Assembly: GCA_047602405.1 (NCBI GenBank) | Contig: JASGHJ010000002.1 | Coordinates: forward strand, 1,568,001-1,632,000 | Length of the DNA: 64,000 bases | Direction of reading: 5' to 3' | Source of the DNA: Anaeromyxobacteraceae bacterium | GTDB taxonomy: Bacteria > Myxococcota > Myxococcia > Myxococcales > Anaeromyxobacteraceae | Shown: piece after piece, positions 16,559 through 44,013 of the stretch | Layout: every line of letters starts with the position of its first letter | Position numbering within the stretch: the stretch's first letter is position 1 | The notes under the pieces: model-generated | Seen by the model: only the letters and a program-made list of their open reading frames with translations | What the model was told of the DNA's origin: nothing | Database searches by the model: none | Made by a program: the position numbers and the translations under genes

Positions 16559-17980
16559 TCACGGGGCAGTGAGCGGGCGCACGAGCTCCGCCCCCACAAC
16601 GGCCGCGTTCGCGGCCCGCCGGGCGACGAGCATGGCCTCGCGCTGGCGCAGCTTCACGTAGGCGGCCTGTCGATCCGGCGGCACCGGGTCCGGGTAGGCC
16701 GCGAGCTCGGCGCGGGCCGCCGCGAGCGCCCGGTCGACCGCCACGACGCGGATGGCGGGCTTGCGGTCCGGCTCGCGCCTGGGATCGATCTCGGCCGTGT
16801 CGTTCTCGGTCCAGAGCGGCACGCAGTCCGCGCCCGCGAGCACCGTGCGGACGACCCCGTGGCCGAGGTCGCGCTTCTCGATCCCGAAGCGCAGGAGCGC
16901 GCCGTCGCGCGGCGCGCCCACCTCGTCGGGGGTGACGCCGTACACGTAGCGCCGCGACTGGTTCGACACGAAGTTCCCGAGCGAGTAGGCCACGAGGGCC
17001 GTGCCGCCGTCCGGCCGGGGGAGGAGCTCCACCGGCTGCAGGACGTGCGGGTGGTGGCCGATGACCACGAGCGCCCCGGCCTCGACGAGCCGGCGCGCGA
17101 GCTCGACGTCCTCGGCGCGGGGCTGCGCGTCGTACTCGACGCCCCAGTGGACGGAGACCAGCACCGCGTCCGCGGCGGCGGCCGCGGCGCGGACGTCCTC
17201 GGGGGCGCGCGCGCGGTCGAGCAGCGAGGCCTGCAGGCAGTCGGGCCGCTGCGTCTCCGGGGGCGGCGCCCCCGCCCCGCCGGTCCCGAGCCCGTCGAGG
17301 GATCGTCGGGGCCCCACCCCCGGCTTGGGCGGGCACTCGTTGCCGGACTGGTTGAACCCGTAGGCGTAGGCGAGGATCGCGATCCGCAGGCCGTTCACCT
17401 CGAGGATCGTCGGCCCGGCGCTGCGGCCCGCCGGGCCGGCGCCGACGGGGCGGAGGCCGGCGGCCGGGACGCGCTCGAGGGTCTCCTCGAAGCCGGCGCG
17501 GCCCTGATCGAAGGCGTGGTTGTTCGTGACGGAGACGACGTCGACGCCCGCGTGCGCGAGCGCCGCGGCCGCGGCGACCGGCGCGTTGAACATGAACTCC
17601 CGCGTGCCGACGTTCGCGGTGGGCGCGACGGGCGTCTCGAGGTTCGCGAACATCACGTCGGGCCCGGCGAGGAGGTCGGCGATGGGCGCGAGGACCCAGG
17701 CGTAGCCGTCGTCGGGCGCGCCGGCGCCGTGGACCGCCGCGGTCCGCTTGATCGCCTCCTGGATCATCACGTCGCCCGTGGCGCCGAACGTGACGCGCGC
17801 GAGCGTGCGGACCTCCGGGGCGGTGACCTTGGGGTGCACCGTGCCGCCGTGCGCGGGGAGGGCCGAAGGGCCCTCCCGGGGGGGCGAGGGCGCCGGCGGC
17901 CGCGGCGCCGTGGCGCACGCCATGGAAAGGACGGAAAGGACGGAAAGAAGGACGAACAGGTGGCTGAGCTTCCGGGTCAC
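16559..17980 (-). CDS. CapA (PGA_cap) family metallophosphoesterase lipoprotein
   Basis: Lipobox LSMAC; GDVM, NLETP, NNHAFD, HWGVEY, GHHPHV, YSLGNF. Confidence 0.88.
   Translation of the reverse strand: MTRKLSHLFVLLSVLSVLSMACATAPRPPAPSPPREGPSALPAHGGTVHPKVTAPEVRTLARVTFGATGDVMIQEAIKRTAAVHGAGAPDDGYAWVLAPIADLLAGPDVMFANLETPVAPTANVGTREFMFNAPVAAAAALAHAGVDVVSVTNNHAFDQGRAGFEETLERVPAAGLRPVGAGPAGRSAGPTILEVNGLRIAILAYAYGFNQSGNECPPKPGVGPRRSLDGLGTGGAGAPPPETQRPDCLQASLLDRARAPEDVRAAAAAADAVLVSVHWGVEYDAQPRAEDVELARRLVEAGALVVIGHHPHVLQPVELLPRPDGGTALVAYSLGNFVSNQSRRYVYGVTPDEVGAPRDGALLRFGIEKRDLGHGVVRTVLAGADCVPLWTENDTAEIDPRREPDRKPAIRVVAVDRALAAARAELAAYPDPVPPDRQAAYVKLRQREAMLVARRAANAAVVGAELVRPLTAP
17258..17324 (-). repeat. 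REP-like element family A, in frame inside the CapA gene
   Basis: Reverse complement GCCGGGGGTGGGGCCCCGACG-ATCCCTCGACGGGCTCGGGAC-CGGCGGGGCGGGGGCGCCGCCCCCGG; encodes PGVGPRRSLDGLGTGGAGAPPP. Confidence 0.75.
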
Positions 17981-18055
17981 GGGTGGAAAGATGATAACGG
18001 CCTCTCCGGGTGGGGTTGAAAAAATGGGAGGCCATGTCCATCTCGGACACCCCGG

Positions 18056-18727
18056 ATGGCCATCCCAGCGCGCGACGCGGCCCGCCTCGAAGGCGGCAGC
18101 ACCCCGGACGGTGCGGCTCGATCGCTCGAGCACGCCCTCAGGTCGGAGGCCCTGGCCACCGTGGCCGCAGGCGTGGCGCACGACGTGAAGAACCCGCTCA
18201 ACGCGATGGCCCTGCAGGTCGCGCTCCTGGGCGAGAAGCTCGGCGACGCCGCCAACGCGGCGGGGCACCTCGCCGCGATCCGGGAGCAGATCGGGCGGGT
18301 CAACGAGGTGGTGCGGCGGCTCCTCGACGTCGTCGACCCCTCGGGTCCCCTGGGGCTCGACGTGGGCGCGCTGCTCCGCGACGCGGCCGCCCTGCTCGGG
18401 CACGAGGCGCGGCGGCGCCGGGTGGCCGTCCAGCTCGTGGTGCCCGACGGGGCGGTGCGGTGCGGCGGTGATCCGGCCCGCATCGGGCGGCTCGTGCTCG
18501 CGGTGGTCGCCGCCACCGTGGCGGACGTCCCGGACGACGGCCGCGTGGAGGTCCGGGTCCGGCGCGAGGGCCGCGAGGTCCTGGTCGAGCTCGCGCGGTC
18601 GGGCGGCGCGCCCGGGCCGGGGCTCACCGCGCTCGCCGCGGCGGAGCCGGGCGGCGCCCTCGCGATCCACGAGGGCGCCGAGGGCGTCGTGATCACGATC
18701 GGATTCGAGGGGGAGGAGCGGCCATGA
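18056..18727 (+). CDS. HisKA (DHp) domain protein with degenerate ATPase domain
   Basis: GVAHDVKNPLNAM H-box; no recognisable N, G1, F or G2 boxes; no sensor domain. Confidence 0.75.
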   Translation: MAIPARDAARLEGGSTPDGAARSLEHALRSEALATVAAGVAHDVKNPLNAMALQVALLGEKLGDAANAAGHLAAIREQIGRVNEVVRRLLDVVDPSGPLGLDVGALLRDAAALLGHEARRRRVAVQLVVPDGAVRCGGDPARIGRLVLAVVAATVADVPDDGRVEVRVRREGREVLVELARSGGAPGPGLTALAAAEPGGALAIHEGAEGVVITIGFEGEERP

Positions 18728-20117
18728 GCTTCCGGGTCCTCATCGTGGACGACGAGCCGGACAGCCTGACCGCCCTCGCGGAGCTCTGCCAGCGCTGGGG
18801 CTACGAGGTGCAGACGGCGGGCGACGGGCACGAGGCGCTCCGGCGCGCCATCGAGCGCCACCCCGACGTGATCCTCACCGACCTCGTCATGCCCAACATG
18901 GACGGGCTCTTCCTCCTGCGCGCGCTCCGGGCGGAGCTGCCGGACTCGGCGGTGGTCCTCCTCACCGGGCGGGGGACCATCCAGACCGCCGTCCAGGCGA
19001 TCAAGGAGGGCGCGTACGACTTCATCGAGAAGCCGCTCGAGGTGGCGCGGCTGCGGCTCGTGCTCGAGCGGGCCCTCGAGAAGAAGGAGACGCTGCGCGA
19101 GGTCCAGGTGCTGCGCCGGCGGCTCGCCGCGCTCGCGCCGGGCACGGAGGTGATCGGCTCGGGCCCCGCGATGCGGAAGGTGTTCGACCTCGTGCAGCGG
19201 GTCGCCTCCTCGAACGCGAGCGTCGTCATCACCGGCGAGAGCGGGACCGGGAAGGAGGTCGTGGCGCGCGCCATCCACAACCTCTCCCCGCGCAAGGAGA
19301 AGGCCTTCGTCGCGCTCAACTGCTCGGCCATCCCCTCGACGCTCATCGAGTCGGAAGCTCTTCGGCTACGAGCGCGGCGCGTTCACCGGCGCGGAGCAGC
19401 GGCGGGTGGGGAACTTCGAGCTCGCCCACGGCGGGACGCTGTTCCTCGACGAGATTGGCGAGCTGCCGCTCGAGCTGCAGGCGAAGTTCCTGCGGGTCCT
19501 CGAGGAGCGGAAGATCCGGCGCCTGGGCGGGCGGTCGGAGGTGGACGTCGACGTGCGGGTGCTCTGCGCGACCAACCGCGATTCTCAAGGAGGAGGTCCG
19601 GGTGGGCCGCTTCCGCGAGGACCTCTTCTTCCGGCTGCAGGTCTTCTCGATCGTGCTCCCGCCGCTCAAGGACCGGCGGGAGGACGTCCCGCTCCTCGTC
19701 CACCACTTCATCGAGAAGTTCAACGCGGAGACCGGCAAGCACGTGCAGGGCGTCACCCCCGGCGCGCTGGCGGTCCTGCAGGGCTACGCCTGGCCCGGGA
19801 ACATCCGCGAGCTCCGCAACACCGTGGAGCGCGCGATGATCCTCTCGGACGGCGACGTGCTCGGCGAGGAGCACCTCCCGCCCGACATGCCGCTCGCCCG
19901 GGCCGAGACCGCGGTGCTGCGGGTGCCGCTCGGGCTCGAGCTCGACCAGGTGGAGCGGGAGTACATCCTCGCGTCGCTCCAGCGGAACGGCGGCAACAAG
20001 GCCCGCACCGCGGAGGCGCTCGGGATCAGCGAGAAGACGCTCTACAACAAGCTCAACCGGTACGCCTCCGAGGCCCGCGATTGCGCCGCCGGCGAGGCGG
20101 CGGGGGCGAAGGCCTGA
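18724..20117 (+). CDS. sigma54-dependent NtrC-family response regulator (frameshifts at ~19355 and ~19582)
   Basis: Receiver domain (DD..D..MP..K), [21 protein letters not shown] split across frames, [10 protein letters not shown], Fis-type HTH. Confidence 0.9.
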
Positions 20118-20142
20118 GCGTCACGGGGCGTGGCCCCCGTGC

Positions 20143-21444
20143 CTACGCGAGCGTCGGCGCGACCGCGACCCGGCCCCGGCCGGCGCGCTTCGCGGCGTAC
20201 AGCGCCGCGTCGGCCGCGCGCACCAGCGCCTCGGCGGAGACCCCGGTGCCGCCGGAGGGCAGGCACGCGACCCCGAACGACGCGCCGACGGTGACCCGCC
20301 GCTCGGCGAGCTCGAGCGACGCCGAGCCGAGCCGCGCGCAGATGCGCTCCGCGAGCACGCGCCCCTCCTCGGCGGTGGTGTGCGGCAGGAGCACCACGAA
20401 CTCGTCGCCGCCGTAGCGGGCGCCGAAGTCGGTCTCGCGGAGCTCCTCGCGGATGACCGCGGCCACCGCGGCGATGGCGCGGTCGCCGGCGGCGTGGCCG
20501 AGCGAGTCGTTGATGGGCTTCAGCTCGTCGAGGTCGGCCATCACGCAGGTGAGCGGGGTGAGGTAGCGGTGTGCCCGCTTGACCTCCTCGTCGACCCGGG
20601 CGCGGAACGCGCGCAGGTTCGCGAGGCCGGTGAGGGCGTCGGTCTGGGCGAGCGCCCGCAGCGCGGACTGGCTGCGCACGAAGCGCAGGGTCCGGTCGAC
20701 GCGCGCGCGGAGCTCGCGGTCGGAGAAGGGCTTCTGCAGGTAGTCGACCGCGCCGAGGTCGAGGCTGCGCACCTTGATGGCGTCGTCGCCTTGGCCGGAC
20801 ACGAAGAGCACCGGGATGTCCGCGGTGGAGGGGTCGGCGCGGAGGCGCTCGAGCACGCCCAGGCCGTCGAGCCGCGGCATGAAGAGATCGAGCAGCACGA
20901 CGTCGGGGCGCTCGTCCCGCGCGAGCTCGAGCGCCGTCTCGCCGTCGGGGGCGGCGAGGACCTCGTAGTCGGGCTCGAGCGCGAGCTGGAGCGCCTCGCG
21001 CGCGTCGAGCTCGTCGTCGGCGACGAGCAGGCGGGGGCGGGGGCCCACCGGCCGGGGCGCGCGGCGGGCCGGGCGCGCGTCGGTGGCGGGGCGCAGCGCC
21101 CGCTCGAGGTCCTCGGCGAGGCGCCGCAGCCGCGCGGCCTCGTCCTGGAGCGCCTGCTCCCCCGCCGCGCCGTCGGCGACGCCGCCGGCGAGGCGCTGCG
21201 CGGCGGCCGAGAGCTCGGCCGCCGCGGAGGCGACCAGCGCCTCCCGGCGGTGGCCCAGCTCGCGCAGGCGGCGGTTCGAGTCGGCGAGCTCGGTCAGGGC
21301 GGCGGGGAGGAGGACGCGCAGGCGCTCCGCGCGCGCCGCCGGCGGCAGCGCGGCGAGCCCCTCGAGCTCGGCGAGGAGCGCGGCGAGCGGGTCGGCGGCC
21401 GCGTCGGGCGCGGGCCGCGGGAGGCTGTCGGTCGGACCGCGCAT
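20143..21444 (-). CDS. response regulator diguanylate cyclase (coiled coil-REC-GGDEF)
   Basis: LVADD..LLDL.MP..KPF receiver; TDALTGL.N, D.D.LK.IND..GH..GD, RYGGDEF. Confidence 0.9.
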
Positions 21445-21584
21445 GGACGGCTCGGGTTCCCCCTGCAACATGGCGCCTGCCGTCCCCCTGGGCAGCAGGC
21501 CCGGGACAACGTACCGCCTGCCGCCTCGCCGGGTGAACCGCCGGACCACGGGACGCGGCGAGGGGATGGCGCTATACCGGGGGC

Positions 21585-21809
21585 ATGCCGGAGACCGTCG
21601 AGATCTACGGGAAGGACACCTGTGGCTACACCAGCGCCGCACGTGCGGACTACGCCGCCCGCGGTCGCCAGGTCACCTACTTCAACGTGAAGAAGGACCC
21701 CGCGGCGATGAAGCGGTTCCTCGAGCTCTCGGGGGGCGACCGCCGGGTGCCGCTCATCGTGGAGCGGGGCCGGATCTCCATCGGGTTCGACGGGACCTGA
21801 ACGGTCTAG
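21585..21809 (+). CDS. glutaredoxin-like selenoprotein of the Uxx-star type (TGA 21798-21800 read as Sec; ends G-T-U-T-V-stop)
   Basis: Grx fold (IYGKDTCGYT, RRVPLIV, IGF); TGA-ACG-GTC-TAG followed by a SECIS-like hairpin. Confidence 0.8.
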
Positions 21810-21810
21810 C

Positions 21811-21828
21811 CGCTCCCGGTCGGGAGCG
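21811..21828 (+). promoter_or_regulatory. bacterial SECIS-like hairpin
   Basis: CGCTCCC-GGTC-GGGAGCG begins 11 nt after the UGA, with a G-G-U apical loop. Confidence 0.7.
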
Positions 21829-21846
21829 TCGCCTCGGGGGGAGGGC

Positions 21847-22575
21847 TCAGTTCCGGCCGTAGAGCGCGCGGCGGTTGCCGCGCATGCTCGGGCCGAGCGG
21901 CGTCGGCGGCCGCTCGAGGTGGAACTGGAACCACTCGTTGCCGTACGTCTTGCCGAGCTTCAGCTTCTTGCCGTTCTGCAGGGTCTGCAGCGTCGAGGCG
22001 AGGCGCTCGTCCTTCGGGAGGACCGTGGCGCCGCGGCCGGCCACCTTGATCGCCTCGTCGTGGCGCCCGGCGTCCTCCAGGATCCACGCGTACACGCTCC
22101 AGAGCAGGCTCTCCTTCTTCGACACCTTCGCGGCCTCCTCGAGTGCGGCGACGGCGCCCTGCACGTCCTTCTTCTTGTAGCGCGCGGCGGCGAGCATCCC
22201 GCGCGGCACCCACTGGCGCACCCAGCTCTTCTCGAGGTGCGGCGTGGCCGCGTCGAAGTCGCCCTTCACGTAGAGGATCTGGCCGATGGCCGCGTGGAGC
22301 TGGGCGCCGGTCAGGAACTGCCAGCGCTCGAATGCGAAGCCGGTCTTGAGGACGGCGATCGCCTTGTCGAAGCGCGGGGGCTGGACCGAGAGCTCCTTCT
22401 GCATCTCCTCGAAGACGCGCTCGAGCTGCTTCCCGGAGCGGCGGGCGAGCAGGATGTACGCGGCGACGCCCGCGACGAGCGCCGGGACGATGGCGGCGAC
22501 CCACCCGAAGCCACCGAGGGCCACGGCGGCGGCGACGACGACGGTGATCGCGAGGCTGATGAGGAGGTTGTACAT
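21847..22575 (-). CDS. membrane-anchored TPR protein
   Basis: Two N-terminal TM helices, then TPR-like helices (GQILYVKGDFDAA..LEK; GRHDEAI.V). Confidence 0.75.
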   Translation of the reverse strand: MYNLLISLAITVVVAAAVALGGFGWVAAIVPALVAGVAAYILLARRSGKQLERVFEEMQKELSVQPPRFDKAIAVLKTGFAFERWQFLTGAQLHAAIGQILYVKGDFDAATPHLEKSWVRQWVPRGMLAAARYKKKDVQGAVAALEEAAKVSKKESLLWSVYAWILEDAGRHDEAIKVAGRGATVLPKDERLASTLQTLQNGKKLKLGKTYGNEWFQFHLERPPTPLGPSMRGNRRALYGRN

Positions 22576-22654
22576 GGCGGGTGGGTACCGATACACGCGC
22601 CCGGGAGGGACCGGCAAGGCAAAATGGACCGGCGCCGGGACCCGGGGTCTGTTG

Positions 22655-22739
<85 letters not shown>

Positions 22740-22860
22740 TCGGGGCGCGACCCTACCACGGAAACCCGCGAAAACGATTGAGCAGGCGCCGGTGCGGCTA
22801 TAGCCTTGGGGGGCGCAATTGAGCGCCCAATCAAAGCAAAGCATTGCCGGGAGTCCCCCC

Positions 22861-23238
22861 ATGGCCCGCACCGCCGCGTCACCCTCGATCGACGACATCG
22901 TCCGCGACGCCATGGAGGCGGTCGTGAAGAAGGCCTCCGTGTCCATCGCCCGCGCGGTGGCCGAGATGGCCGCCGCCCGCCTCTCCGAGGAGCTCGAGGT
23001 CGGCCTCTCGAAGACGAAGGGCGCGAAGGTCCGTCGCGCCGGCGGCCGCGCCGCCCGCCCGCCGCGCACCGAGATCACGAGGTGGATCGCCGATCGCCGC
23101 GCGCGCCGCGTCCCGAACTTCGTCATCGACGCGACCGGCCTCAAGACGAAGAAGGCGATCGTGGCGCGGTTCGGCGAGGACGCCGCGTTCGAAAAGGGGA
23201 AGCCGCTGCCGCCGAAGGCGAAGAACGCCTCCGCGTAG
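22861..23238 (+). CDS. small basic protein, candidate nucleoid-associated protein
   Basis: N-terminal amphipathic helices, Lys/Arg-rich linker, C-terminal W.ADRRARRVP.FV domain; GC3-rich codons. Confidence 0.65.
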   Translation: MARTAASPSIDDIVRDAMEAVVKKASVSIARAVAEMAAARLSEELEVGLSKTKGAKVRRAGGRAARPPRTEITRWIADRRARRVPNFVIDATGLKTKKAIVARFGEDAAFEKGKPLPPKAKNASA

Positions 23239-23295
23239 CCGGGAGCGGCGCGGCCGGGGGCCCGCCCGTCCCGACGAGGTCGAGGGACGGTCGGG

Positions 23296-23595
23296 CTACT
23301 TCTTCTCGCCGCCGGTCCCGCCCGTCGCGGGGGCCGGGGAGGGCTTCGCGTCGGCGCCGCCGCCCGGCGGCGAGGGCGCGGCCTCCGCCTTCGGCTTCGC
23401 CTTGCCGGCGCCGGCGCTCGCGTAGAGATCGGAGTACCAGCCTCCGCCCTTGAGCTGGAAGCTCGTGCGCGAGACGAGCTTCGAGAGGCGGGCCTCGCCG
23501 CAGCCGGGGCACGCGCCGGGCGGCGGGTCGCTCACCTTCTGCATCACCTCGGTGAGCCGGCCGCACGCCTCGCAGACGTATTCGTAGATGGGCAC
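23296..23595 (-). CDS. FmdB family zinc-ribbon regulatory protein
   Basis: MPIYEYVCEACG..CPGCG..LVS.TSF.LKG.GWY. Confidence 0.9.
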   Translation of the reverse strand: MPIYEYVCEACGRLTEVMQKVSDPPPGACPGCGEARLSKLVSRTSFQLKGGGWYSDLYASAGAGKAKPKAEAAPSPPGGGADAKPSPAPATGGTGGEKK

Positions 23596-23628
23596 GGTGA
23601 GATCCTAACCGGGGGCAGGTTCCGCCTG

Positions 23629-25008: not shown

Positions 25009-25100
25009 GGCCGGGGCACCCTGCGACGTGACGCCCCGCTCCGTCAAGCGTCACGACGCCGGCGTTGCCGCGGGCCCTTTCGCCGTGCTTCACTCCGCCC

Positions 25101-25705
25101 GTGCCGGGAAAGCCTGCCGTCGAGCCGAAGCCTCCGCTGCCCCACGGGCTGCGCGTGCTGCGCTGGGTCCTCGTCGCGCTGCTCGCGGTGAGCGCGTTCC
25201 TCACGCTCGTGGCCGTCCCCGAGCTGCGCGAGGAGGTCGCCGCCTCCGCCTGGATCAAGGCCGCGCTCGCGGCGCCGCTCGTGCTGCTCGGCGCCTTCGT
25301 GGTCGGCTTCGCGGTGTACCGGGTGCGGATGGTGGGGCTCGGCCGGTACGACGGCGGGCGCGCGCTCCTGCAGATCGCGCTCCTCAGCCTGGCGCTCGCG
25401 GTGATCGGCGGGCTCGTCCTCTTCCCGGACGACCGCGGCGTGAGCGCGAAGCCGGTCGATCTCGCCCACGCGCTCCGGGTCCCCGACCCGGTGGTGAAGT
25501 CGCTCGCGGCGGAGGTCGTGCGGTACCGGCCGCCCGACGAGGCGAGGGGCCACCTGCCCGCGCTCGTGCAGCTGCTCGAGGACCCCTCGCCCGAGGTCCG
25601 GCGGCAGGCGCACGCCTCGCTGGTGCAGCTCGCCGGGGAGATCTCGGCGGCGAGGGGCCGGGCGCGGGCGCCCGCTGGCGGGAGAAGCTGGGTCTCGCCC
25701 GCTGA
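25101..25705 (+). CDS. membrane protein with C-terminal HEAT repeat (frameshift at ~25640 falsely fuses it to fur)
   Basis: Three TM helices, LVQLLEDPSPEVRRQAHASL HEAT repeat; restoring one G gives LAGEDLGGEGPGAGARWREKLGLAR* ending at 25705. Confidence 0.7.
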
Positions 25706-25731
25706 GGGCCTTGCGCCCCGGCCGGGGCGCA

Positions 25732-25753
25732 TGATAGTGAGAATCGTTCTCAT
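25732..25753. promoter_or_regulatory. Fur box overlapping the fur start
   Basis: TGATAG-TGAGAATCGTTCTCA-T: inverted repeat TGAGAA-N3-TTCTCA resembling the Fur box core; AT-rich within GC-rich DNA. Confidence 0.75.
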
Positions 25754-28324: not shown

Positions 28325-28335
28325 GAACCCGACCG

Positions 28336-28581
28336 ATGCCCGCCGTCGTCGCCCGCGAGGAGACCTGTCCGCTGTGCCAGAGCCGCTTCGACGCGGAGGG
28401 GCAGGGCTGCCGCCCGAGCTGCCCGATGTCGAAGGGGTGCAAGGTGCTGTGCTGCCCGTCCTGCGGGTACAGCTTCCCGCAGGAGGAGACCGGCCTCGCC
28501 GGCCGGCTGCGCGCCTGGCTCGACCGCCGCAGCCGCGGCCCCGAGGCGGCGCACGCCGGCGCGGGGAAGGTGGCGCCGTGA
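28336..28581 (+). CDS. small Cys-rich protein in the feo operon
   Basis: 81 aa, CPLC..C.PSCPMSKGC..CCPSCGYSF (8 Cys); its stop overlaps the next GTG. Confidence 0.7.
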   Translation: MPAVVAREETCPLCQSRFDAEGQGCRPSCPMSKGCKVLCCPSCGYSFPQEETGLAGRLRAWLDRRSRGPEAAHAGAGKVAP

Positions 28582-29256
28582 GCACGCTCGCGTCGCGCCG
28601 CAGCGAGGAGATCCTGGAGACCGTCTTCACCGAGCGGGAGGAGGGGAGGAACCTCGCGGCGGGGATCCTGGCCGCCGCCCCCGAGGACCACGCCCCCGGC
28701 GCCGCCCGCGAGGACCTCGAGGCGCTCGCCTCGGCGGGGCTCGTCCGGCTCGAGGGCGAGCGGGTCGACCTCACCGACGGCGGCGAGAAGCGCGCGCGCG
28801 ACGTCGTGCGCCGCCACCGCCTCGCCGAGCGGCTGTTCAACGACCTCCTCGACCTCGGCGGCGTGGCCGCCGAGAGCCAGGCCTGCGAGTTCGAGCACAT
28901 CCTCTCACCCGAGGCGACCGACTCGGTCTGCACGCTGCTCGGCCACCCGCCGACCTGCCCGCACGGCAAGCCCATCCCGCCGGGCCCGTGCTGCAACACC
29001 TTCCAGAAGACCGTGCGGCCGCTCGTGACCGGCCTGCCCGCGCTCGAGCTCGGCCGCCACGGGCGGATCGTCTTCATCGCCCCCCGGTTCCACGACCGGA
29101 TGGACCGGCTCGCGGCGCTCGGCGTGGTCCCGGGCTCGACCCTGCGCCTGCACCAGCGCGCGCCCTCCTTCGTCATCGAGGTGGGCGAGACCACCATCGC
29201 GCTCGATCCCGAGAATCGCGCGCGAGATCTACGTGAAGCCCGTCGACGCAGGCTGA
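28578..29256 (+). CDS. DtxR/MntR family metal-dependent regulator with C-terminal FeoA domain (frameshift ~29214)
   Basis: LT..G...A..VVRRHRLAERL, AC.FEH, P.TCPHG.PIP; FeoA-like RL.ALG..PG..IAL..E.A..IYV. Confidence 0.88.
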
Positions 29257-29273
29257 CCCCTGGAGGGGCCCTC

Positions 29274-29322
29274 GCCCCTCGACTCCGGGCCGCTTCGCGG
29301 CCCTCCGCTCGGGGTGGACGGA
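29274..29322 (+). repeat. palindromic repeat family B
   Basis: GCCCCTCGACTCCG-[GGCCGC TTC GCGGCC]-CTCCGCTCGGGGTGGACGG; same frame as the copy at 39454. Confidence 0.55.
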
Positions 29323-29357
29323 CCACCCCTCCCTGGCAGGAGGACGCTGCCCTGAAG

Positions 29358-29373
29358 TTGAGAATGAGACGCA
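29358..29373. promoter_or_regulatory. degenerate Fur-box-like site upstream of the FMN-binding protein gene
   Basis: TTGAGAATGAGACGCA shares the TGAGAAT half-site with the box at 25738. Confidence 0.4.
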
Positions 29374-29389
29374 CCATCGAGATCCGCCG

Positions 29390-29923
29390 ATGACCCTGCT
29401 CCCCGCCCTCGCCCTGGCCCTCGCCGCCGCGGCCCCCGACGCGGGCCGGCTCGCGCGCGAGGCGTTCCCCGAGGCCGAGCGCGTCGAGCCGCGGGAGGTG
29501 GTGCTCACCGACGAGCTCGCCGCGCGCCTCGAGGCGCTCGCGCACGCGCGCGTGAAGGAGCGGCGGGTCGCCTTCGTGGCCGCGCTGAAGGGCCCCGGGG
29601 CCGGGCAGGTGGTGGGCTGGCTCGTCGTGCACGAGCACGTGGTCCGGACGAAGCGTGAGACCCTCTCCGTCGCCTTCGAGCCCGACGGCCGCATCCGCAA
29701 GGTGCGGGTGCTCGAGTTCCTGGAGCCGCCCGAGTACCGCACCCCGGAGCGCTGGCTCGCCCAGCTCGAGGGGAAGGGGCCCGACGACCGGGTCACGGTC
29801 GGCCAGGACCTCGCGCCCATCTCCGGGGCGACGCTCTCCGCGCGGGGCGTCGCGGAGGCCTCGCGCTGGCTCCTGCGCGCCCTTGAGCTCGCCGCGCACC
29901 CGCCGGCGGGAGGCCGCCCATGA
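29390..29923 (+). CDS. exported FMN-binding (flavinylation target) protein
   Basis: Signal peptide; DG.I..V.VL.F.EP.EY..WL.Q..G; ISGATLS carries the [ST]GAT FMNylation motif. Confidence 0.85.
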   Translation: MTLLPALALALAAAAPDAGRLAREAFPEAERVEPREVVLTDELAARLEALAHARVKERRVAFVAALKGPGAGQVVGWLVVHEHVVRTKRETLSVAFEPDGRIRKVRVLEFLEPPEYRTPERWLAQLEGKGPDDRVTVGQDLAPISGATLSARGVAEASRWLLRALELAAHPPAGGRP

Positions 29924-34493: not shown

Positions 34494-34502
34494 AATCCCG
34501 GC

Positions 34503-35832: not shown

Positions 35833-35850
35833 CCGCCTTAGGATCCGCCG

Positions 35851-36118
35851 GTGACCGAACCGACGCTCCCCGAGCTCGAGTACCCGCTCGACTACACCTT
35901 CAAGAATCATGGGGCTCGCCGCCGACGACTTCGAGCGGCACGCCCGCGCGCTCGTCGAGCGGGCGATCGGGCTCGAGGCCGCCGAGGTGCGGGTGCGGTC
36001 GAGCGCCGGCGGGAAGTACCACTCGGTCTCGGTGGTGGTGCGGCTCGAGGGCGAGGATCAGCGCCGGGCGGTCTACGTGGCCCTGAAGGCCGACGCGCGG
36101 GTGGTCTACTACCTGTAA
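35851..36118 (+). CDS. DUF493/YbeD family protein (frameshift ~35905)
   Basis: LEYP..YTFK(I)MG...SS.GKY.SV...Y..L....V..YL. Confidence 0.85.
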
Positions 36119-36151
36119 CGCGGAGCGCCGGTCAGGCGGCGGCGGGGCCGG

Positions 36152-37237
36152 TCAGGCGGCGGCACTCGGCGCGAAGTCGACGACCTCGACCGCGCCGGGC
36201 GCGAGCCCGAACTGCACCCCGTCCCGCCAGCCCTCGGCGTCGCCGCCGATCTGCAGCGGCATCGGGCGCTCGAACGACAGCGCGACGCGCTCGACCGAGA
36301 AGTCGTGGAGCACCTCGTGGCTGAACTCGCCGGAGAACAGGCGGGGCAGCTGGAGGAGCACGTCGGCGACCGGGACCGAGGAGGCGAGCCGGAGCTGGAA
36401 CATGCCCGGCGCGCGGTCGGCGAACGGGAACGCCTTCAGGCCGAGGCCGTAGTACGGGACCGTGCTCGCCGCGGCGAGGGCGCAGGGGCCCGCGTAGAGG
36501 AGCTCGCCGTGCTCGACCGGGCGGCCGATGCGGTTGCCGCGGGCGTCGAGGCGCCAGGCGGTGCGGCCGGTGTTCACGATCTCGCAGTAGCCGGGCCGGC
36601 GCTCCATGAGGTAGCGGGGCGCCGAGCGGAGCGCGACGGCGAGCCCGTAGCCGGGGGCGCCGAGGCCGAGGCCGCGCAGCGGCGTCTCGGCGAGCCGCTG
36701 CCTGACCCAGTTGTAGTCGTTGAGGATCGCGGCATCGAGGCCGACGCCCGCGAACGGGGTGCGGCGGCCGCCGACGTCGAGGAGCGGGAGGCGGCGCGTG
36801 CCGGCCTCGCCCCGGAGGTACCGGACGAGGTCCTCGGTGTGGCGGCGCGGGTCGGCGCCGACCATCTCGGCGACCGCGTTGCCGGTGCCGAGCGCGAGCA
36901 CGCCGAAGCGGGGCGCCCGGGCGAAGCGGCGCTCGGCGATCTCGAGGATGCGGTTCACCCAGGCGACGAACGTCCCGTCGCCGCCGCCGGTGAAGACGGT
37001 GTGGTAGCCGCGGTCCACCACGGCCTCGGCGACGCGCGACGCCTCGTCCGGGCAGGTGGTGAAGTAGACGTGCTCGCTCGGCACCACGCTCAGCAGGGAG
37101 TCGCGCACGCGCGCGTTGACCGCCTTCGCGTTCCCGTTCAGGAGCACGGCGACGCCCTCGGTGCCGGCCGCGGGGGCGGCGTCGGCGGCGGGGTGAAACC
37201 GGGCCTGGCGCTCGAAGTTCTGGATGAGTCGAAGCAT
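36152..37237 (-). CDS. diacylglycerol kinase family lipid kinase
   Basis: GGGDGT, LGTGN, G.GLDA, QIGGD. Confidence 0.85.
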   Translation of the reverse strand: MLRLIQNFERQARFHPAADAAPAAGTEGVAVLLNGNAKAVNARVRDSLLSVVPSEHVYFTTCPDEASRVAEAVVDRGYHTVFTGGGDGTFVAWVNRILEIAERRFARAPRFGVLALGTGNAVAEMVGADPRRHTEDLVRYLRGEAGTRRLPLLDVGGRRTPFAGVGLDAAILNDYNWVRQRLAETPLRGLGLGAPGYGLAVALRSAPRYLMERRPGYCEIVNTGRTAWRLDARGNRIGRPVEHGELLYAGPCALAAASTVPYYGLGLKAFPFADRAPGMFQLRLASSVPVADVLLQLPRLFSGEFSHEVLHDFSVERVALSFERPMPLQIGGDAEGWRDGVQFGLAPGAVEVVDFAPSAAA

Positions 37238-37484
37238 GCTCACGGGTCCGCCTCTGAGGTGTGACGCGGCTGCCCCGGTGGGAGCAAGCGCGGTGCCACG
37301 GCGCGTCACCGAGGCGATCCCGTGTCGGAATCGTGAGTTGCGTGCGGTGCCCTACCCGGGTCGGGTGTACGGGGTACGCGTCGCCAGGGTGGCGGTGCGG
37401 TGTCCGCTACGCACCTCGGCTGCGTAGCGTCGTCGCACCCGGGCGGCGGAGCCCGGGGCGGGAGCGCAAACGACCAGGCGGCGT

Positions 37485-37512
37485 TTGACAGGCCCGGACG
37501 CGGACTTAGGTT
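37485..37512 (+). promoter_or_regulatory. sigma70-type promoter of dnaK
   Basis: TTGACA-16 nt-TAGGTT; AGGAGG ribosome-binding site downstream. Confidence 0.5.
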
Positions 37513-37539
37513 GGCCGCGTCCAGGAGGGACCTTCGAGA

Positions 37540-39436
37540 ATGGCCAAGATCATCGGCATCGACCTCGGCACGACCAACTCCGTCGTCGCGGTGATGGAGG
37601 GCAAGGACGCCGTCGTCATCACGAACGAGGAGGGCTCGCGCCTCACCCCGAGCGTCGTCGCCTACACCAAGGAAGGGGAGCGGCTGGTCGGCCAGGTGGC
37701 CAAGCGCCAGGCCATCACCAACCCCGAGCGCACCGTCTACTCGATCAAGCGGTTCATGGGCCGCCGGTACAGCGAGGTCTCCGAGGAGAGCCGCCGCGTC
37801 CCGTACAAGGTGGTGGAGGGCCCGAACGGCGACGCCCGCGTCGACATCGACGGCAAGCAGAACTCGCCCCCCGAGATCTCGGCGCAGATCCTGCTCAAGC
37901 TGAAGCGCGCCGCCGAGAACTACCTCGGCGAGAAGGTGACGGACGCCGTCATCACGGTGCCCGCGTACTTCAACGACGCCCAGCGCCAGGCCACGAAGGA
38001 CGCCGGCGAGATCGCCGGCCTCAACGTCCGCCGCATCGTGAACGAGCCGACCGCGGCGGCGCTCGCCTACGGCCTCGACCGCAAGAAGAACGAGAAGATC
38101 GCGGTCTACGACTTCGGCGGCGGCACGTTCGACATCTCGATCCTCGAGGTGGGCGAGAACGTGGTCGAGGTGCTCGCGACGAACGGCGACACGCACCTCG
38201 GCGGCGACAACCTCGACCAGGCGATCATCGACTGGCTCATCGCCGAGTTCCGGAAGGACTCCGGCCTCGACGTCTCGAAGGACAAGATGGTGCTGCAGCG
38301 CCTCAAGGAGGCGGCCGAGAAGGCGAAGATCGAGCTCTCCTCGACGATGGAGACCGAGATCAACCTGCCGTTCCTCACCGCCGATCAGACGGGCCCGAAG
38401 CACCTCTCCATGAAGCTCTCGCGCGCCAAGCTCGAGCAGCTCGTGGGGGCGCTCGTCGACCGCTCGATCGAGCCGACCCGCCGCTGCATCGCCGACGCGA
38501 AGCTCGACCCGTCGCAGATCGACGAGGTGGTGCTGGTCGGCGGCCAGACGCGCATGCCGCTCATCATCGAGACGGTGAAGAAGTTCTTCGGCAAGGAGCC
38601 GAACCGCACCGTCAACCCGGACGAGGTCGTGGCGGTCGGCGCGGCGGTCCAGGCGGGCGTGCTCTCCGGCGAGGTGAAGGACATCCTCCTCCTCGACGTG
38701 ACCCCGCTCTCGCTGGGCGTGGAGACCCTCGGCGGCGTGATGACCCGCCTCATCGAGCGGAACACCACCATCCCGGTCAAGAAGGCGGAGGTCTTCTCGA
38801 CCGCCTCCGACAGCCAGACGTCCGTCGAGATCCACGTGCTCCAGGGCGAGCGCGAGATGGCGAAGGACAACCGGACCCTCGGCCGCTTCCACCTCGAGGG
38901 CATCCCGCCGGCGCCCCGGGGCCTGCCGCAGAATCGAGGTGGCGTTCGACATCGACGCGAACGGCATCCTGAACGTCTCGGCCCGCGACAAGGGCACCGG
39001 CAAGGAGACGAAGATCACCATCTCGCACTCGTCCGGCCTCGCGAAGGACGAGGTGGAGAAGATGGTGGCCGACGCCCGCGCGCACGAGTCCGAGGACAAG
39101 GCGCGCCGCGACGAGATCGAGCAGCGCAACCGCGCCGAGAACCTCGCCTACCAGATGGAGAAGCTCCTCAAGGACAACAAGGAGAAGCTCTCCGCCCCCA
39201 CGGTGAAGGACATCGAGGACGCGGTCGCCGAGGTCCACAAGGTCCGCGAGAAGGGCACCGCCGACGAGGTGAAGGCGGCGATGGACCGCCTCGAGAAGGC
39301 GAGCCACAAGGCGGCCGAGGAGCTCTACAAGACCGCGCAGCCCGACGGCGGCCCCGCCGGCGGCCCGCCCCCCGGCGGCACGCCCGAGGAGCCCAAGAAG
39401 GACAACGTCGTCGACGCGGAGTTCAAGCAGGTCTAG
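37540..39436 (+). CDS. dnaK: molecular chaperone DnaK (frameshift ~38932)
   Basis: Canonical DnaK motifs; ...[19 protein letters not shown]... continues in the next frame to VVDAEFKQV*. Confidence 0.97.
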
Positions 39437-39453
39437 CGGCTCCGCGCCCGCCC

Positions 39454-39528
39454 GTCCTTCGACTTCGAAACCGCGGCGCCCGGGCCTCACGGCCCGGGCG
39501 TCGCAGTTTCTACGCTCAGGATGAGCGG
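39454..39528 (+). repeat. palindromic repeat family B downstream of dnaK
   Basis: GTCCTTCGACTTCG-[long hairpin]-CTACGCTCAGGATGAGCGG. Confidence 0.6.
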
Positions 39529-39577
39529 TCCAGATTTCCCGGGCGGCGACGGCCGCAGGGGCTAAGCTCCAGGTCCC

Positions 39578-40513
39578 TTGCACCTCACCATCCTCAGCCG
39601 CTCCGAAGGGATCTACACGACGCGGCGCCTCGTCGAGGCCGCGCGGGCGCGCGGCTGGAAGGCGCGGGTGGTGGACCCGCTCGACGTCGAGCTCGGCCTC
39701 GGGGAGGACGTCCCGGCGCTGCACTGGCGCCGGAAGGCCTTCCCGAGGACCGACGTGGTCATCCCGCGCATCGGGCTCTCGGTGCACCAGTACGGCCTGT
39801 CGGTGGTGGCCCAGCTCGAGCTCCTCGGCGTGCCGGTGCTGAACGGCGGCCGCGCCATCTCGGCGAGCCGCAACAAGGTCCGGGCGCTCCAGCTCCTCGC
39901 GGCGGAGGGGGTGCGGGTCCCGCGCACCGTGATGGCGAGCGCCCCGGCGGGCCTCAGGGAGATGGCCCGCCTCGTGGGCGGCGTGCCGGTGCTCGTGAAG
40001 CTCATCTCGGCGAACGAGAAGAGCGGCGTGATGGTCTGCGAGACCTGGGAGTCGCTCGAGGCGGCGCTCGAGGCGGTGCTCGGGCTCGGGCAGAACATCG
40101 TCGTCCAGCAGTACGTGCGCGGCGCGCGGGGGCGCGACCTCAGGGTCCTCGTGGTGGGCGGCGCGGTCGTCGCCGCCATGCGGCGCCGGCCCGCGGTCGG
40201 GAAGCTCGAGACGAGCCTGCGCCGCGGGGCGCGCTTCGAGGCCGCGGAGCTGCCCGGGGCGCACCGGGCGGCCGCCCTCCAGGCGGCCGCGGTGCTGGGG
40301 CTCGAGGTGTGCGCCGTCGACCTCCTCGACGTGAAGGGGCGTCCGCTCGTCTTCGAGGTGAACGCGTCGCCGAGCATCCGCGAGGCCGAGACGGCCAGCG
40401 GCGTCGACGCGGCCGGGGCCATCGTCGAGCGGGCCGCGGCGCTCGCCCGCGCCGCCGCGCCGAGGGCGGCGCCCCGGGGCCGCCGCCCTCGGCGGCTCGC
40501 CCGGGGGGCTTGA
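39578..40513 (+). CDS. rimK: RimK family ATP-grasp alpha-L-glutamate ligase
   Basis: ILSR...YTTRRL, D.VIPRIG, RDLRV.VVGG, VD.L, EVNASP. Confidence 0.85.
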
Positions 40514-40567
40514 AGCAACGGCCGCCCCCGGCCGTCCGTGGTAAGAGGTCCGCCCGGAGGCATCCCC

Positions 40568-41056
40568 TTGCGCAACGTCCTCGTCCTGCTCGCGCTCCTC
40601 GCCGCTCCCGTCGCCGGCGCCTCGACGCCCGGCGAGGAGGCCGCGCGGAGCTACCGCCTCGACACCACCGGCTCGACCGCCTCGCTCGCGCGCGGCGCGG
40701 CCGGGAAGCTCGTGCTCGCCATCGTCCCGGGGCCGGGCATCCACGTGCACCCGCAGGCGCCGCTCAAGATCGCGCTCGAGGGGAAGGGGCTCACCTTCGC
40801 GAAGGCGACGCTCGGGCACGCCGACGCGGTGGATCCGAAGGCGGAGGGGCCGCGGTTCGAGGTGCCGTTCACCGCCACCGAGGCGGGCGCCGGCGAGGCG
40901 CGCGCGCGGGCGGAGTTCTTCGTCTGCTCGGATCGCTGGTGCGTGAAGCAGGTGAAGGACGTCGTCGTCCAGGTCGACGTTGCTGCCGGGGTGGGGCCCC
41001 GACGGGCTTTGCCCGGCGGGGCGGGGGGCGCCGAGCCCTCCGGAGAGACTCGGTGA
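40568..41056 (+). CDS. exported DsbD-N-like (Ig-fold, CxxxxC) protein; C-terminal tail encoded by a repeat
   Basis: Signal peptide; [14 protein letters not shown]; tail [18 protein letters not shown]. Confidence 0.6.
40985..41044 (+). repeat. REP-like element family A, inside the CDS 3' end
   Basis: GCCGGGGTGGGGCCCCGACG-GGCTTTGCC-CGGCGGGGCGGGGGGCGCCGAGCCCTCCGGA. Confidence 0.75.
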
Positions 41057-41799
41057 GGATCCTGTACGGCATGAACCCGGTGCGCGAGCTGCTGCGCGCC
41101 GGCGGGGAGGGGCTCTCGGAGCTGTGGCTCGCGGAGGGCGGCACGCGCGGGCAGGCGTTCGCCGAGCTCGAGCGCCTCGGCAAGCAGGCGGGCGCGAAGG
41201 TGCGCGCCGCGCCGCGCGAGAAGCTCGATCGGCTCGCCGGCACCGACCGGCACCAGGGCATCGTCGCGGTGGTGGCGGACTTCCGCTACGCCGAGCTCGA
41301 GGAGCTGCTCGAGCCGGAGCAGGGGCGGCCGGCGCTCCTCGTCGTGCTCGACGGGGTCGAGGACCCGCACAACCTCGGGGCGATCGTGCGGTCCGCGCTC
41401 GCGCTCGGCGCGACGGGCGTCGTCATCCCGCGCGACCGGGCGGTGGGCGTGACGCCCGCGGTCGCGAAGGCCTCGGCGGGCGCCGTGGAGCGGGTGCGCA
41501 TCGCGCGCGTCGTGAACGTCGCGAAGACCCTCGAGCGCATGAAGGAGCAGGGCGTCTGGTCGGTCGCGCTCGCGGCGGACGGCGACCGCGAGCTCGGCGG
41601 GGTGGACCTCCGGGGGCCGATGGCGCTCGTGCTCGGCAGCGAGGCCGAGGGCATCCGGCCGCTCGTCCGCCGGACGTGCGACATGGGCGCTCGCATCCCC
41701 ATGTCGGGCGGCATCGACTCGCTCTCGGTCTCGGCGGCGGCGGCCGTGGCGCTCTATGAGGCGGCGCGTCAGCGCGCCGGGAAGCCCCGCTCGCCGTGA
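41053..41799 (+). CDS. rlmB: 23S rRNA (Gm2251) 2'-O-methyltransferase
   Basis: [40 protein letters not shown]. Confidence 0.93.
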
Positions 41800-41857
41800 G
41801 CGCGGCGGCGCGAACCGCGCCGAAGTCGAGCGAAGAATCACACGGCGATCTGCGCAC

Positions 41858-41887
41858 TTGACAAGCCCGGGCCCCATCCCTTACAAG
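41858..41887 (+). promoter_or_regulatory. promoter of the tRNA-tuf operon
   Basis: TTGACA followed 17-18 nt later by TTACAAG. Confidence 0.5.
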
Positions 41888-41957
41888 GCTCCGCTCCACG
41901 CGACCCCGACAGCGGGGGTTTACGTGGGGGCCGGTTCGGGTTTTCCACCGTGATTTC

Positions 41958-42033
41958 GCTGGCGTAGCTCAGTCGGTAGAGCAGCTGCCTTGTAAGCAGC
42001 AGGCCGCGGGTTCGAATCCCACCGCCAGCTCCA
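41958..42033 (+). tRNA. tRNA-Thr(TGT)
   Basis: Cloverleaf, loop CT-TGT-AA, GGTTCGAATCC, CCA end. Confidence 0.96.
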
Positions 42034-42141
42034 CCTCGGAGTGGGATCAGCAGGCGCGGCAACGTGCGGTGAAGTGCAGCGGGAGCAGTCGCGAAGGGAC
42101 GGGCATCGAAGCACCAGCAGGTCGACAGGCAGTCGAGATAC

Positions 42142-42227
42142 GGAGGGGTTCCCGAGCGGCCAAAGGGAGCAGACTGTAAATCTGCCGGCTTACGCCTTCG
42201 GTGGTTCGAATCCACCCCCCTCCACCA
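42142..42227 (+). tRNA. tRNA-Tyr(GTA)
   Basis: Loop CT-GTA-AA, long variable arm, CCA end. Confidence 0.96.
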
Positions 42228-42289
42228 AGCATCGGCGGCACGGTCGGATCGGAACACGGACATCACAGGGGCAGCGGGAGAGAAGTTTC

Positions 42290-42365
42290 GCGGGAATAGC
42301 TCAGCTGGTAGAGCGTCAGCCTTCCAAGCTGAATGTCGCGGGTTCGAATCCCGTTTCCCGCTCCA
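42290..42365 (+). tRNA. tRNA-Gly(TCC)
   Basis: Loop CT-TCC-AA, CCA end. Confidence 0.96.
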
Positions 42366-42424
42366 GTGAGAGGTCGAAGAGGCAACGGCGGTACGCAGAC
42401 CGCAGCATCGCAAACAAGGAATAA

Positions 42425-42500
<76 letters not shown>

Positions 42501-42559
42501 AGTAAACGGCGGCAGGGACGCAGCCCGCCCGGTGGCACCCAACTGCAGGAGACGACGCC

Positions 42560-43750
<1,191 letters not shown>

Positions 43751-43762
43751 GGGAGTAGGTCC

Positions 43763-43921
43763 ATGGCCGGGAATCGCACGATCATCACGCTCGAGTGCAA
43801 GACCTGCAAAGAGCGGAACTACACGACGACGAAGAACAAGAAGAAGACGCAGGACAAGCTCACCCTCTCCAAGTACTGCCCGCGCTGCCGCAAGCACGTG
43901 GAGCACAAGGAGACGAAGTAG
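43763..43921 (+). CDS. rpmG: 50S ribosomal protein L33 (Zn-binding form)
   Basis: [52 protein letters not shown]; not in the ORF track (52 aa). Confidence 0.95.
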
Positions 43922-43954
43922 GGCCACTCCGCTCGGGGCAGGGGCAGGGCCCGA

Positions 43955-44009
43955 GCCGGGTGGGGCCCCGACGAGCTCGCTCGGCGGGGCGGGGGCCGAG
44001 CCCCCGGGA
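43955..44009 (+). repeat. REP-like element family A, intergenic
   Basis: GCCGGGTGGGGCCCCGACG-AGCTCGCT-CGGCGGGGCGGGGGCCGAGCCCCCGGGA. Confidence 0.75.
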
Positions 44010-44013
44010 ATAC

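What the first reader, a model, noticed from the sequence alone, without database searches (positions are those of the whole stretch)
17258..44009. REP-like palindromic element that is translated in frame inside proteins
Seen: consensus GCCGGG(G)TGGGGCCCCGACG-[variable hairpin]-CGGCGGGGCGGGGG..CCC.CGGA at 17258-17324 (-), 40985-41044 (+) and 43955-44009 (+), with a divergent copy at 7520-7583 (-). A GTGG head precedes an imperfect stem (GCCCCG-A-CG / CG-G-CGGGGC) and a second small hairpin. Two copies lie in coding sequence, in the same orientation and frame, giving GVGPRR...GGAG peptides: one between two Cys in the CapA catalytic domain, one as the C-terminal tail of the DsbD-N-like protein. 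Established: GTAG/GTGG-headed REPs associate with TnpA(REP)/RAYT nucleases and are mostly intergenic; in-frame insertion is known for Rickettsia palindromic elements. Inference: a repeat family creating new peptide segments in this lineage.
Basis: partly seen in the sequence, partly recalled or inferred. Interest (0 to 1): 0.7.

Follow-up and report, generated by a model that had tools for sequence, protein, structure and literature searches.

The report
Hairpin repeat read inside proteins
A roughly 70-base hairpin repeat sits at 85 places in this bacterium's genome, mostly at gene ends, but about ten copies lie in frame inside otherwise conserved genes, where they would add short, likely neutral, glycine/proline-rich loops; it is a new example of a known kind of likely selfish DNA, and the enzyme that moves it was not found.

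Summary
The four window copies belong to a dispersed two-hairpin repeat: 93 units at 85 loci, none in a reversed-genome control. It is patchy across the family (31 of 57 genomes; one has 423 matches) and also occurs in more distant bacteria.

The CapA insert (75 nt) and the DsbD-N-like insert (69 nt) are in frame and absent from 20 of 20 and 23 of 23 orthologue segments. At least ten host genes carry in-frame copies, including fpg, rsmA and a UvrD-type helicase; dN/dS is 0.11-0.34. Five of six frames are used, so there is no family peptide.

More typical are copies on stop codons (34 of 85). The sister genome often has C-TAG where the copy gives C-TGA, with no consistent target duplication.

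No RAYT or GIY-YIG gene had it within 1.5 kb (0 of 108 loci). Translation is inferred.

This works like Rickettsia RPEs and intragenic REPs; I found no description of this family. The scan noted similar elements on other DNA.

The parts
17249..17323 (-). Element copy, 75-nt in-frame insertion in the CapA/PGA_cap gene (PGVGPRRSLDGLGTGGAGAPPPETQ); its first loop holds a unit of a second repeat family (17286-17302)
16559..17800 (-). CapA/PGA_cap metallophosphatase-fold domain region of the host gene (the start codon lies further upstream and was not fixed)
40982..41050 (+). Element copy, 69-nt in-frame insertion before the last codon of the DsbD-N-like gene ([23 protein letters not shown])
40538..41056 (+). 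Host gene, small protein with a C-x4-C pair, weakly DsbD-N-like; its TGA overlaps the rlmB start (GTG at 41053)
43950..44013 (+). Intergenic element copy ending at the first base of tRNA-Trp; the sister genome has CCT|AGGCCAG at this site (left end approximate)
7513..7586 (-). Diverged intergenic copy upstream of clpX; shortened remnant in the sister genome (ends approximate)

Best explanation
This is a dispersed two-hairpin DNA repeat of 65-110 bases, present or absent between close relatives, that is likely a non-autonomous mobile element copied as single-stranded DNA by an enzyme encoded elsewhere, and whose in-frame copies are likely tolerated passengers rather than selected peptides. Shown: the anatomy (variable leader, GGGG-T/A-GGGG-CCCC, stem-loop, GGGG-C/A-GGGGG, stem-loop, C run, short tail ending before AG); empty orthologous sites; a sharp 3' junction and a ragged 5' junction, sometimes with replaced host sequence; no consistent target duplication. 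Inferred: on the C-rich strand the element is joined just after CT, with a preference for CT|AG. CTAG is rare here (1,073 sites) and about half of these are C-TAG stop codons, so many copies land on stops; those that begin with GA rebuild the stop as TGA and persist. Copies that land inside genes persist only if the net length is a multiple of three and the site is a tolerant loop or terminus. The G/C-rich element has few stop codons, so nearly any frame can be read. The moving enzyme is not identified; an HUH (Y1)-type strand-transfer enzyme is my best guess from the CT junction, the missing duplication and a modest replication-strand bias.
For: Copy number: 93 units at 85 loci, 0 in the control. 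Patchiness: 28 of 37 genus genomes match, 0-70 matches each, controls 0-1; 31 of 57 family genomes against 3 of 93 others in the order, and 423 matches in G159. Empty sites: CapA 20 of 20, DsbD-N-like 23 of 23. An orthologous region in sister genome G010 was found for 72 of 85 loci and most lack the element. Frame filter: where the sister ORF spans the site, 9 of 9 stay open and none is frameshifted. Ten host genes have dN/dS 0.11-0.34 against G010 and nine of them have no paralogue by tblastn. The CapA model keeps its fold (pTM 0.90), with pLDDT 58-63 over the insert against 80-86 beside it. The Fpg and RsmA inserts fall between the two stretches that align to solved structures. Stops: 34 of 85 loci have an antisense gene's stop within 8 nt of the 3' end; the tail ends TC|AG in 23 of 28 stop-sited copies against 3 of 57 others. 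The sister shares AG at the junction in 31 of 59 comparisons and has CT|AG in 11 of 59. In other genomes 37 of 107 and 38 of 103 sampled copies abut a stop, against about 4% for control TGA triplets. Stems co-vary: the linker base tracks the base after the C run (C-G 51, A-T 22 of 77). Strand: the G-rich strand has lagging-strand sense in 53 of 85 (p 0.015). TnpA(REP) is reported to cut at CT (PMC8266576, passages).
Against: No partner enzyme was found: 0 of 62 Y1 and 0 of 46 GIY-YIG loci carry the element within 1.5 kb; no nuclease or transposase family recurs among 745 ORFs beside 308 loci; the DUF559 genes inspected have their own repeat. In 28 of 59 comparisons the sister does not have AG at the junction (7 have CG), so the A may come from the element and a CT target is not universal; some automated junctions are misplaced and five TC|AG rows are sites where the sister holds a related repeat. 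TnpA(REP) cuts between C and T, whereas the T here stays with the host. The strand bias is seen on contig C2 (37 of 53) and not on C1 (16 of 32), whose skew is weak. Direction (gain here or loss in G010) is fixed by outgroups only for the two window genes. dN/dS is pairwise and includes time before insertion. Gene calls come from my own rough codon model. Translation of the inserts is not shown.
Confidence: 0.6

Rival explanations
1. The element is a passenger of the small GIY-YIG (Ssn-like) nuclease system: the nuclease would nick single-stranded DNA beside hairpins, and repair would copy this element along with the second repeat family that brackets the nuclease gene.
For: A second repeat family (337 loose matches against 18 in the control) is in this genome and 14 matches lie inside this element's head and tail; one unit forms the loop of the CapA copy. 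The two families replace each other at orthologous sites. That family brackets a 102-aa GIY-YIG gene here and in several relatives. All 14 genomes with this nuclease carry the element. Ragged junctions fit nick-and-repair. Ssn nucleases cut single-stranded DNA beside hairpin repeats (PMC11893778, section 8).
Against: The element itself never flanks a GIY-YIG gene (0 of 46 loci) and the published SRM pattern matches 0 of 85 loci. The nuclease was not found in G159 (423 matches; 590 contigs, so it could be unassembled) or in single-contig genomes G015, G023 and G068, which have 28, 18 and 14 matches. A stricter recount gave 44 copies and none nested, but its pattern misses the commonest form and is not comparable.
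Confidence: 0.2
2. The repeat is kept mainly as an RNA element (terminator, stabiliser or translation brake at gene ends) and spreads by recombination between copies, not through a dedicated enzyme.
For: 34 of 85 loci abut a stop; stems co-vary; variants replace one another at the same site; REPs within 15 nt of a stop are reported to stall ribosomes (PMC12306157, passages).
Against: Most sites are empty in a genome about 92% identical; copy number runs from 0 to 423; there is no U tract; insertion into unique empty sites is not explained by conversion between copies.
Confidence: 0.12
4. It is an ordinary MITE moved by a DDE transposase that targets CTAG or TA.
For: CT|AG at 11 of 59 sister sites; CTAG and TA targets are known for some IS families (recalled, not tested).
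Against: No terminal inverted repeats of MITE length and no consistent duplication at empty-versus-filled sites; the 5' end varies in length and sequence.
Confidence: 0.03

Closest known systems
Rickettsia palindromic elements (RPE; as summarised in PMC10969869 and PMC3733652, passages read)
   Same: Palindromic repeat inserted in frame in unrelated, apparently functional genes; no known partner enzyme.
   Different: About 70 nt rather than about 150; no conserved peptide (five frames); about 12% of loci in frame rather than nearly half; strong docking on stop codons; free-living, 74% GC host.
GTAG-tagged REPs with RAYT/TnpA(REP) (PMC3733652, PMC8266576, passages read)
   Same: Short head before a hairpin that often has an internal mismatch; mostly at gene ends; ends supply stop codons; some copies intragenic, including in repair helicases; CT at the junction; tandem clusters.
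   Different: Head is GTGG or GAGG inside G runs, never GTAG in the 77 units parsed; two hairpins plus leader and tail; no flanked RAYT found; tandem units are head to tail, not inverted doublets.
CGTC-tagged REPs / Ssn-related motifs with Ssn GIY-YIG nucleases (PMC3733652; PMC11893778, abstract, passages and section 8 read)
   Same: The second repeat family in this genome resembles them by eye, brackets a small GIY-YIG gene, and nests inside this element.
   Different: This element has no CGTC tag, matches the SRM pattern at 0 of 85 loci and never flanks the nuclease gene.
TIRtrons / TIRYT, TnpA-Y1 subclass 2.1 (PMC3733652, PMC6006769, passages read)
   Same: G159's one Y1 gene has GGGGTCAAGACCT ends, and its element copies start with TCAAGACCT (399 matches of the leader).
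   Different: The overlap is only 9 nt; that enzyme is in 3 of 59 family genomes and not in this one; the leader also resembles the second repeat family.

Membership tests
GTAG REP / REPtron | GTAG tetranucleotide 5' of the hairpin | tested here: not met
   Head base T in 54 and A in 23 of 77 units (GTGG/GAGG); the parsing pattern could not have admitted GTAG, but the 93 profile hits shown show none either
GTAG REP / REPtron | Hairpin, often with an internal mismatch | tested here: met
   Stem variants and folds
GTAG REP / REPtron | 20-40 bp single palindrome | tested here: not met
   Units are 60-75 nt here and about 100 nt in G159
GTAG REP / REPtron | RAYT gene flanked by the repeat | tested here: not met
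   0 of 62 Y1 loci within 1.5 kb; none within 6 kb of the six Y1 hits in this genome
GTAG REP / REPtron | Cleavage at CT by the partner enzyme | not testable with these tools
   Junction data are compatible (AG shared in 31 of 59); this needs an in vitro assay
CGTC REP / SRM-Ssn | SRM consensus or CGTC tag | tested here: not met
   0 of 85 loci match the published pattern
CGTC REP / SRM-Ssn | Repeats flank a single-domain GIY-YIG gene | tested here: not met
   0 of 46 GIY-YIG loci for this element; met for the second repeat family
CGTC REP / SRM-Ssn | Nuclease belongs to CDD cd10448 | not testable with these tools
   No CDD library; only Pfam GIY-YIG, no NCBIfam match
Rickettsia palindromic element | In-frame insertion in unrelated conserved ORFs | tested here: met
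   Ten host genes
Rickettsia palindromic element | Conserved encoded peptide | tested here: not met
   Five of six frames used
Rickettsia palindromic element | Sequence homology to RPE families | not tested
   No RPE sequence was fetched; Rfam gave only tRNAs in the window
MITE (DDE type) | 15-30 bp terminal inverted repeats | tested here: not met
   Ends inspected; the 5' end is variable
MITE (DDE type) | Target site duplication | tested here: not met
   Empty-versus-filled alignments show no consistent duplication; single sites show 2-8 nt microhomology, and G159 copies have TCA at both ends without an empty site to compare
TIRtron / TIRYT | Repeat equals the GGGGWSAS inverted ends of a Y1 gene | tested here: inconclusive
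   9-nt overlap in G159 only; enzyme in 3 of 59 genomes

The most novel reading that the evidence does not exclude
This is the non-autonomous member of an undescribed, widespread class of single-stranded mobile elements (invariant GGGGWGGGGCCCC...GGGGMGGGG core in Myxococcota, Acidobacteriota and other groups). It targets CT|AG, survives by rebuilding the host's stop codon with its own end, is moved by an enzyme that is not a RAYT, an Ssn-type GIY-YIG or DUF559, and adds loops to housekeeping enzymes in any frame.
Probability: 0.25. Interest if true: 0.65.

Novelty: new member of a known kind. Interest (0 to 1): 0.4.

Why it matters
It gives recent, polarised examples (filled here, empty in a close sister) of mobile DNA entering proteins such as Fpg, RsmA, NFACT and a UvrD-type helicase, in a genus that likely has cultured members, so tolerance of repeat-derived loops can be tested directly. 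It also suggests a simple reason why such repeats sit exactly on stop codons: a target word that in a GC-rich genome is mostly C-TAG, plus an end that rebuilds TGA. The phenomenon itself (in-frame palindromes, repeat ends as stop codons) is in print for other families, so the gain is a new family and an open question about its enzyme.

Tried and rejected
Partner enzyme searches, all negative. Y1/RAYT (PF01797): this genome, 37 genus genomes and 10 element-bearing genomes. GIY-YIG. TIRYT profile. DUF559: 8 of 59 genomes, not this one; five loci inspected had no element, the 14 further loci were not scanned. IS91 Y2 transposase: 0 of 5, but nothing rang in the controls, so uninformative. Clustering of neighbouring ORFs. 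Only 1.5 kb on each side of each gene was scanned, and only the loci returned (at most 30 per search). Viral contigs: 3 matches, which look like chance by eye. Rfam: tRNAs only. Sequencing runs: no RNA holder listed and all shares under 0.1, so no reads were laid. ESM Atlas gave no answer for the DsbD-N-like protein. G-quadruplex: the four G runs suggest one, but ViennaRNA with quadruplexes on chose the hairpin fold for the one copy tried. A recalled CWG target for REPINs was not found in PMC3116915 (0 occurrences) and was dropped. The 2-mismatch hit at 52181-52195 lies in the last codons of an ORF ending at 52210, lacks the rest of the element and is rejected. Literature: nine searches listed no description of this family. 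'Anaeromyxobacter' occurs 0 times in the main texts of PMC3733652, PMC10969869, PMC11893778, PMC12306157 and PMC6006769, and 0 times in the 4 supplements of PMC3733652 held as text. Other supplements and subscription papers, including the original RPE papers, were not seen.
Full report
1. Observation. The window is part of a 6.16-Mb, 74% GC genome in two contigs. The same motif lies in named Anaeromyxobacter and Anaeromyxobacteraceae records, so the host is likely of that group (inference). The 15-mer has 17 exact copies in the genome. A structural pattern found 82 copies against 2 in the reversed sequence. A profile built from 81 of those found 93 units and none in the reversed genome; they merge into 85 loci.

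2. Anatomy. On the G-rich strand a unit reads: a variable leader (GCTGCC, or GATCC with further GCGAAGC-type hairpins), GGGG-T/A-GGGG-CCCC, a stem-loop, GGGG-C/A-GGGGG, a second stem-loop closed by a C run, and a tail of about 8 nt before AG. The stems vary with pairing kept. The linker base co-varies with the base after the C run (C with G in 51 and A with T in 22 of 77), and the head base tracks both. Tandem units are head to tail. Rfam has no match.

3. Distribution. The pattern is in 28 of 37 genus genomes, in 31 of 57 family genomes against single hits in 3 of 93 other genomes of the order, and has 423 matches in G159. A capped scan of all species (121 loci) and one of metagenomes (120 loci) show the same invariant core with different stems in other Myxococcota, Acidobacteriota and unclassified bacteria, beside some low-complexity chance hits.

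4. The two coding copies. In CapA the closest relative, G010, reads C-P-P-R-R-P-D-C where this genome has 25 more residues; 20 of 20 homologous segments recovered from 29 loci lack the insert. The 413-residue model keeps its fold (pTM 0.90), with lower confidence over the insert, and matches MslH and other metallophosphatases. In the DsbD-N-like gene 23 codons lie before the last codon; 23 of 23 segments recovered from 29 loci lack them. The stop and its overlap with the rlmB start are unchanged.

5. Other coding copies. A rough codon model classed the 85 loci as 8 internal, 5 read through at a C terminus, 28 with a stop at the element's end, 12 possible N-terminal and 32 intergenic. I fetched 91 stretches of G010 and found the orthologous region for 72 of 85 loci. 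The eight internal copies differ from the sister by 66, 69, 63, 66, 69, 9, 75 and -39 nt; the +9 case replaces host sequence and the -39 case holds a different in-frame variant in the sister. That class is in frame by definition, so I asked the reverse question: where the sister's ORF spans the site, 9 of 9 remain open here. The hosts are an aldo/keto reductase, NFACT, Fpg, RsmA, a Ser/Thr kinase, a molybdopterin oxidoreductase, a UvrD-type helicase and a beta-lactamase-like protein, besides the two window genes; an Smr protein and a few C-terminal extensions are further candidates. dN/dS against G010 is 0.11-0.34 for all ten, and only the oxidoreductase has paralogues. The Fpg and RsmA inserts split the match to solved structures in two. 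Five of six frames are used, so GVGPRR is not a family peptide. In other genomes 3 of 165 sampled copies passed a similar test, one of them a different-looking repeat, and a fourth, in a UvrD helicase, was seen by eye; that test favours this genome's codon use.

6. Stop codons and the junction. 34 of 85 loci have an antisense gene's stop within 8 nt of the element's 3' end, and 12 of 85 have a same-strand stop at the 5' end. The tail ends TC|AG in 23 of 28 stop-sited copies and in 3 of 57 others. Where the sister lacks the element it shares AG at the junction in 31 of 59 comparisons and has CT|AG in 11. CTAG occurs 1,073 times in the genome, 523 of them as called stops. By my hand count, leaving out sites where the sister holds a related repeat, 11 empty stop sites have C-TAG and 3 have C-TGA, against a 27% share of C-TAG among such stops (p 8e-5; a hand-picked set). 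The filled copy turns C-TAG into C-TGA. Against a simple rule, 28 of 59 sisters lack AG, and at several coding sites the A is at a third codon position where the sister has C. There is no consistent target duplication and the 5' junction is ragged. Stop abutment recurs elsewhere: 11 of 27 in G010, 8 of 23 in G159, 37 of 107 and 38 of 103 in the two wide scans, against about 4% for control triplets. The G-rich strand has lagging-strand sense in 53 of 85 loci (p 0.015), all of the excess being on contig C2.

7. The enzyme. None was found. The six weak Y1 hits here have no copy within 6 kb. None of 62 Y1 and 46 GIY-YIG loci carries the element within 1.5 kb, and no nuclease recurs beside 308 loci. 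Two leads remain. First, a second and larger repeat family (337 loose matches, control 18) brackets a 102-aa GIY-YIG gene, nests in this element in 14 cases and swaps with it at orthologous sites; but the nuclease is in 14 of 59 family genomes and was not found in several element-rich ones. Second, G159's copies start with 9 nt shared with the ends of its TIRYT gene; but that enzyme is in 3 of 59 genomes.

8. Mechanism. Most likely (0.6) it is a non-autonomous element copied as single-stranded DNA and joined after CT without duplication, then filtered by selection into intergenic sites, rebuilt stop codons and in-frame loops. The anatomy, the empty sites, frame preservation and the stop bias are shown. 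Mobility by an enzyme, the CT target, single-strandedness, translation and neutrality are inferred.

9. Comparison. It works like Rickettsia RPEs and intragenic REPs. In-frame copies, repeat ends that supply stop codons and insertions in recB and uvrA are described in PMC3733652 (passages) and PMC10969869 (passages). It fails membership tests for GTAG REPs, SRMs and MITEs. Other papers seen: PMC8266576 (passages), PMC11893778 (abstract, passages, section 8), PMC12306157 (passages), PMC6006769 (passages), PMC3116915 (passages). Nine searches listed no description of this family. Earlier notes of this scan describe similar stop-docking and in-frame hairpin repeats in other genomes; they are unchecked, and none matched this sequence.

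10. Verdict. Real; a new family of a known kind; interest 0.4. The open question worth pursuing is the enzyme and the CT|AG stop-rebuilding junction.

Noticed in passing
G000:C1:1892791-1893096 (-), locus L310: A 102-aa stand-alone GIY-YIG gene bracketed by inverted arrays of a second hairpin repeat; the same layout occurs in several relatives, often between the same two genes, and in several the repeat array runs in frame into the nuclease's own C terminus.
   Followed up: partly
window 29275-29312 (-); genome-wide: The second repeat family has about 300 copies in this genome (337 loose matches, control 18). The window copy lies in or beside the end of the ORF called at 28578-29393 and was not checked for frame.
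   Followed up: partly
G159 (L254-L283): A relative with 423 matches, a longer unit of about 100 nt with a fixed TCAAGACCTGTCG leader (399 matches) and almost all copies ending CTCAG: probably a recent burst and the best place to look for the enzyme.
   Followed up: partly
G000:C2:2726530 and G010 (L084); L509: The same loop of a UvrD-type helicase holds different in-frame variants in the two sister genomes, and an unrelated metagenome UvrD helicase also has an in-frame copy at another site.
   Followed up: partly
G000:C2:2722150 (L321): A tandem array replaced a TAG stop without rebuilding it, giving a DUF507 protein a predicted read-through tail of about 130 residues.
   Followed up: partly
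G000:C2:2524469, C1:2221901, C2:3257262: Three near-identical Y1 (RAYT-like) genes with shared flanks, unlinked to this element; they look like a recently active insertion sequence.
   Followed up: no
G000:C1:2150308: A copy lies just before an FTLLEVM pilin-type motif, possibly in a prepilin leader; the sister holds the second repeat family in the same frame of sequence there.
   Followed up: no
G159 (L601, L603-L605): Broken DUF559 nuclease genes flanked by a third hairpin family (CCCCTCACCCC...CCCTCTCCCCC).
   Followed up: no
G000:C2:261073-261967 and window 43950-44013: Several copies abut tRNA genes directly.
   Followed up: partly
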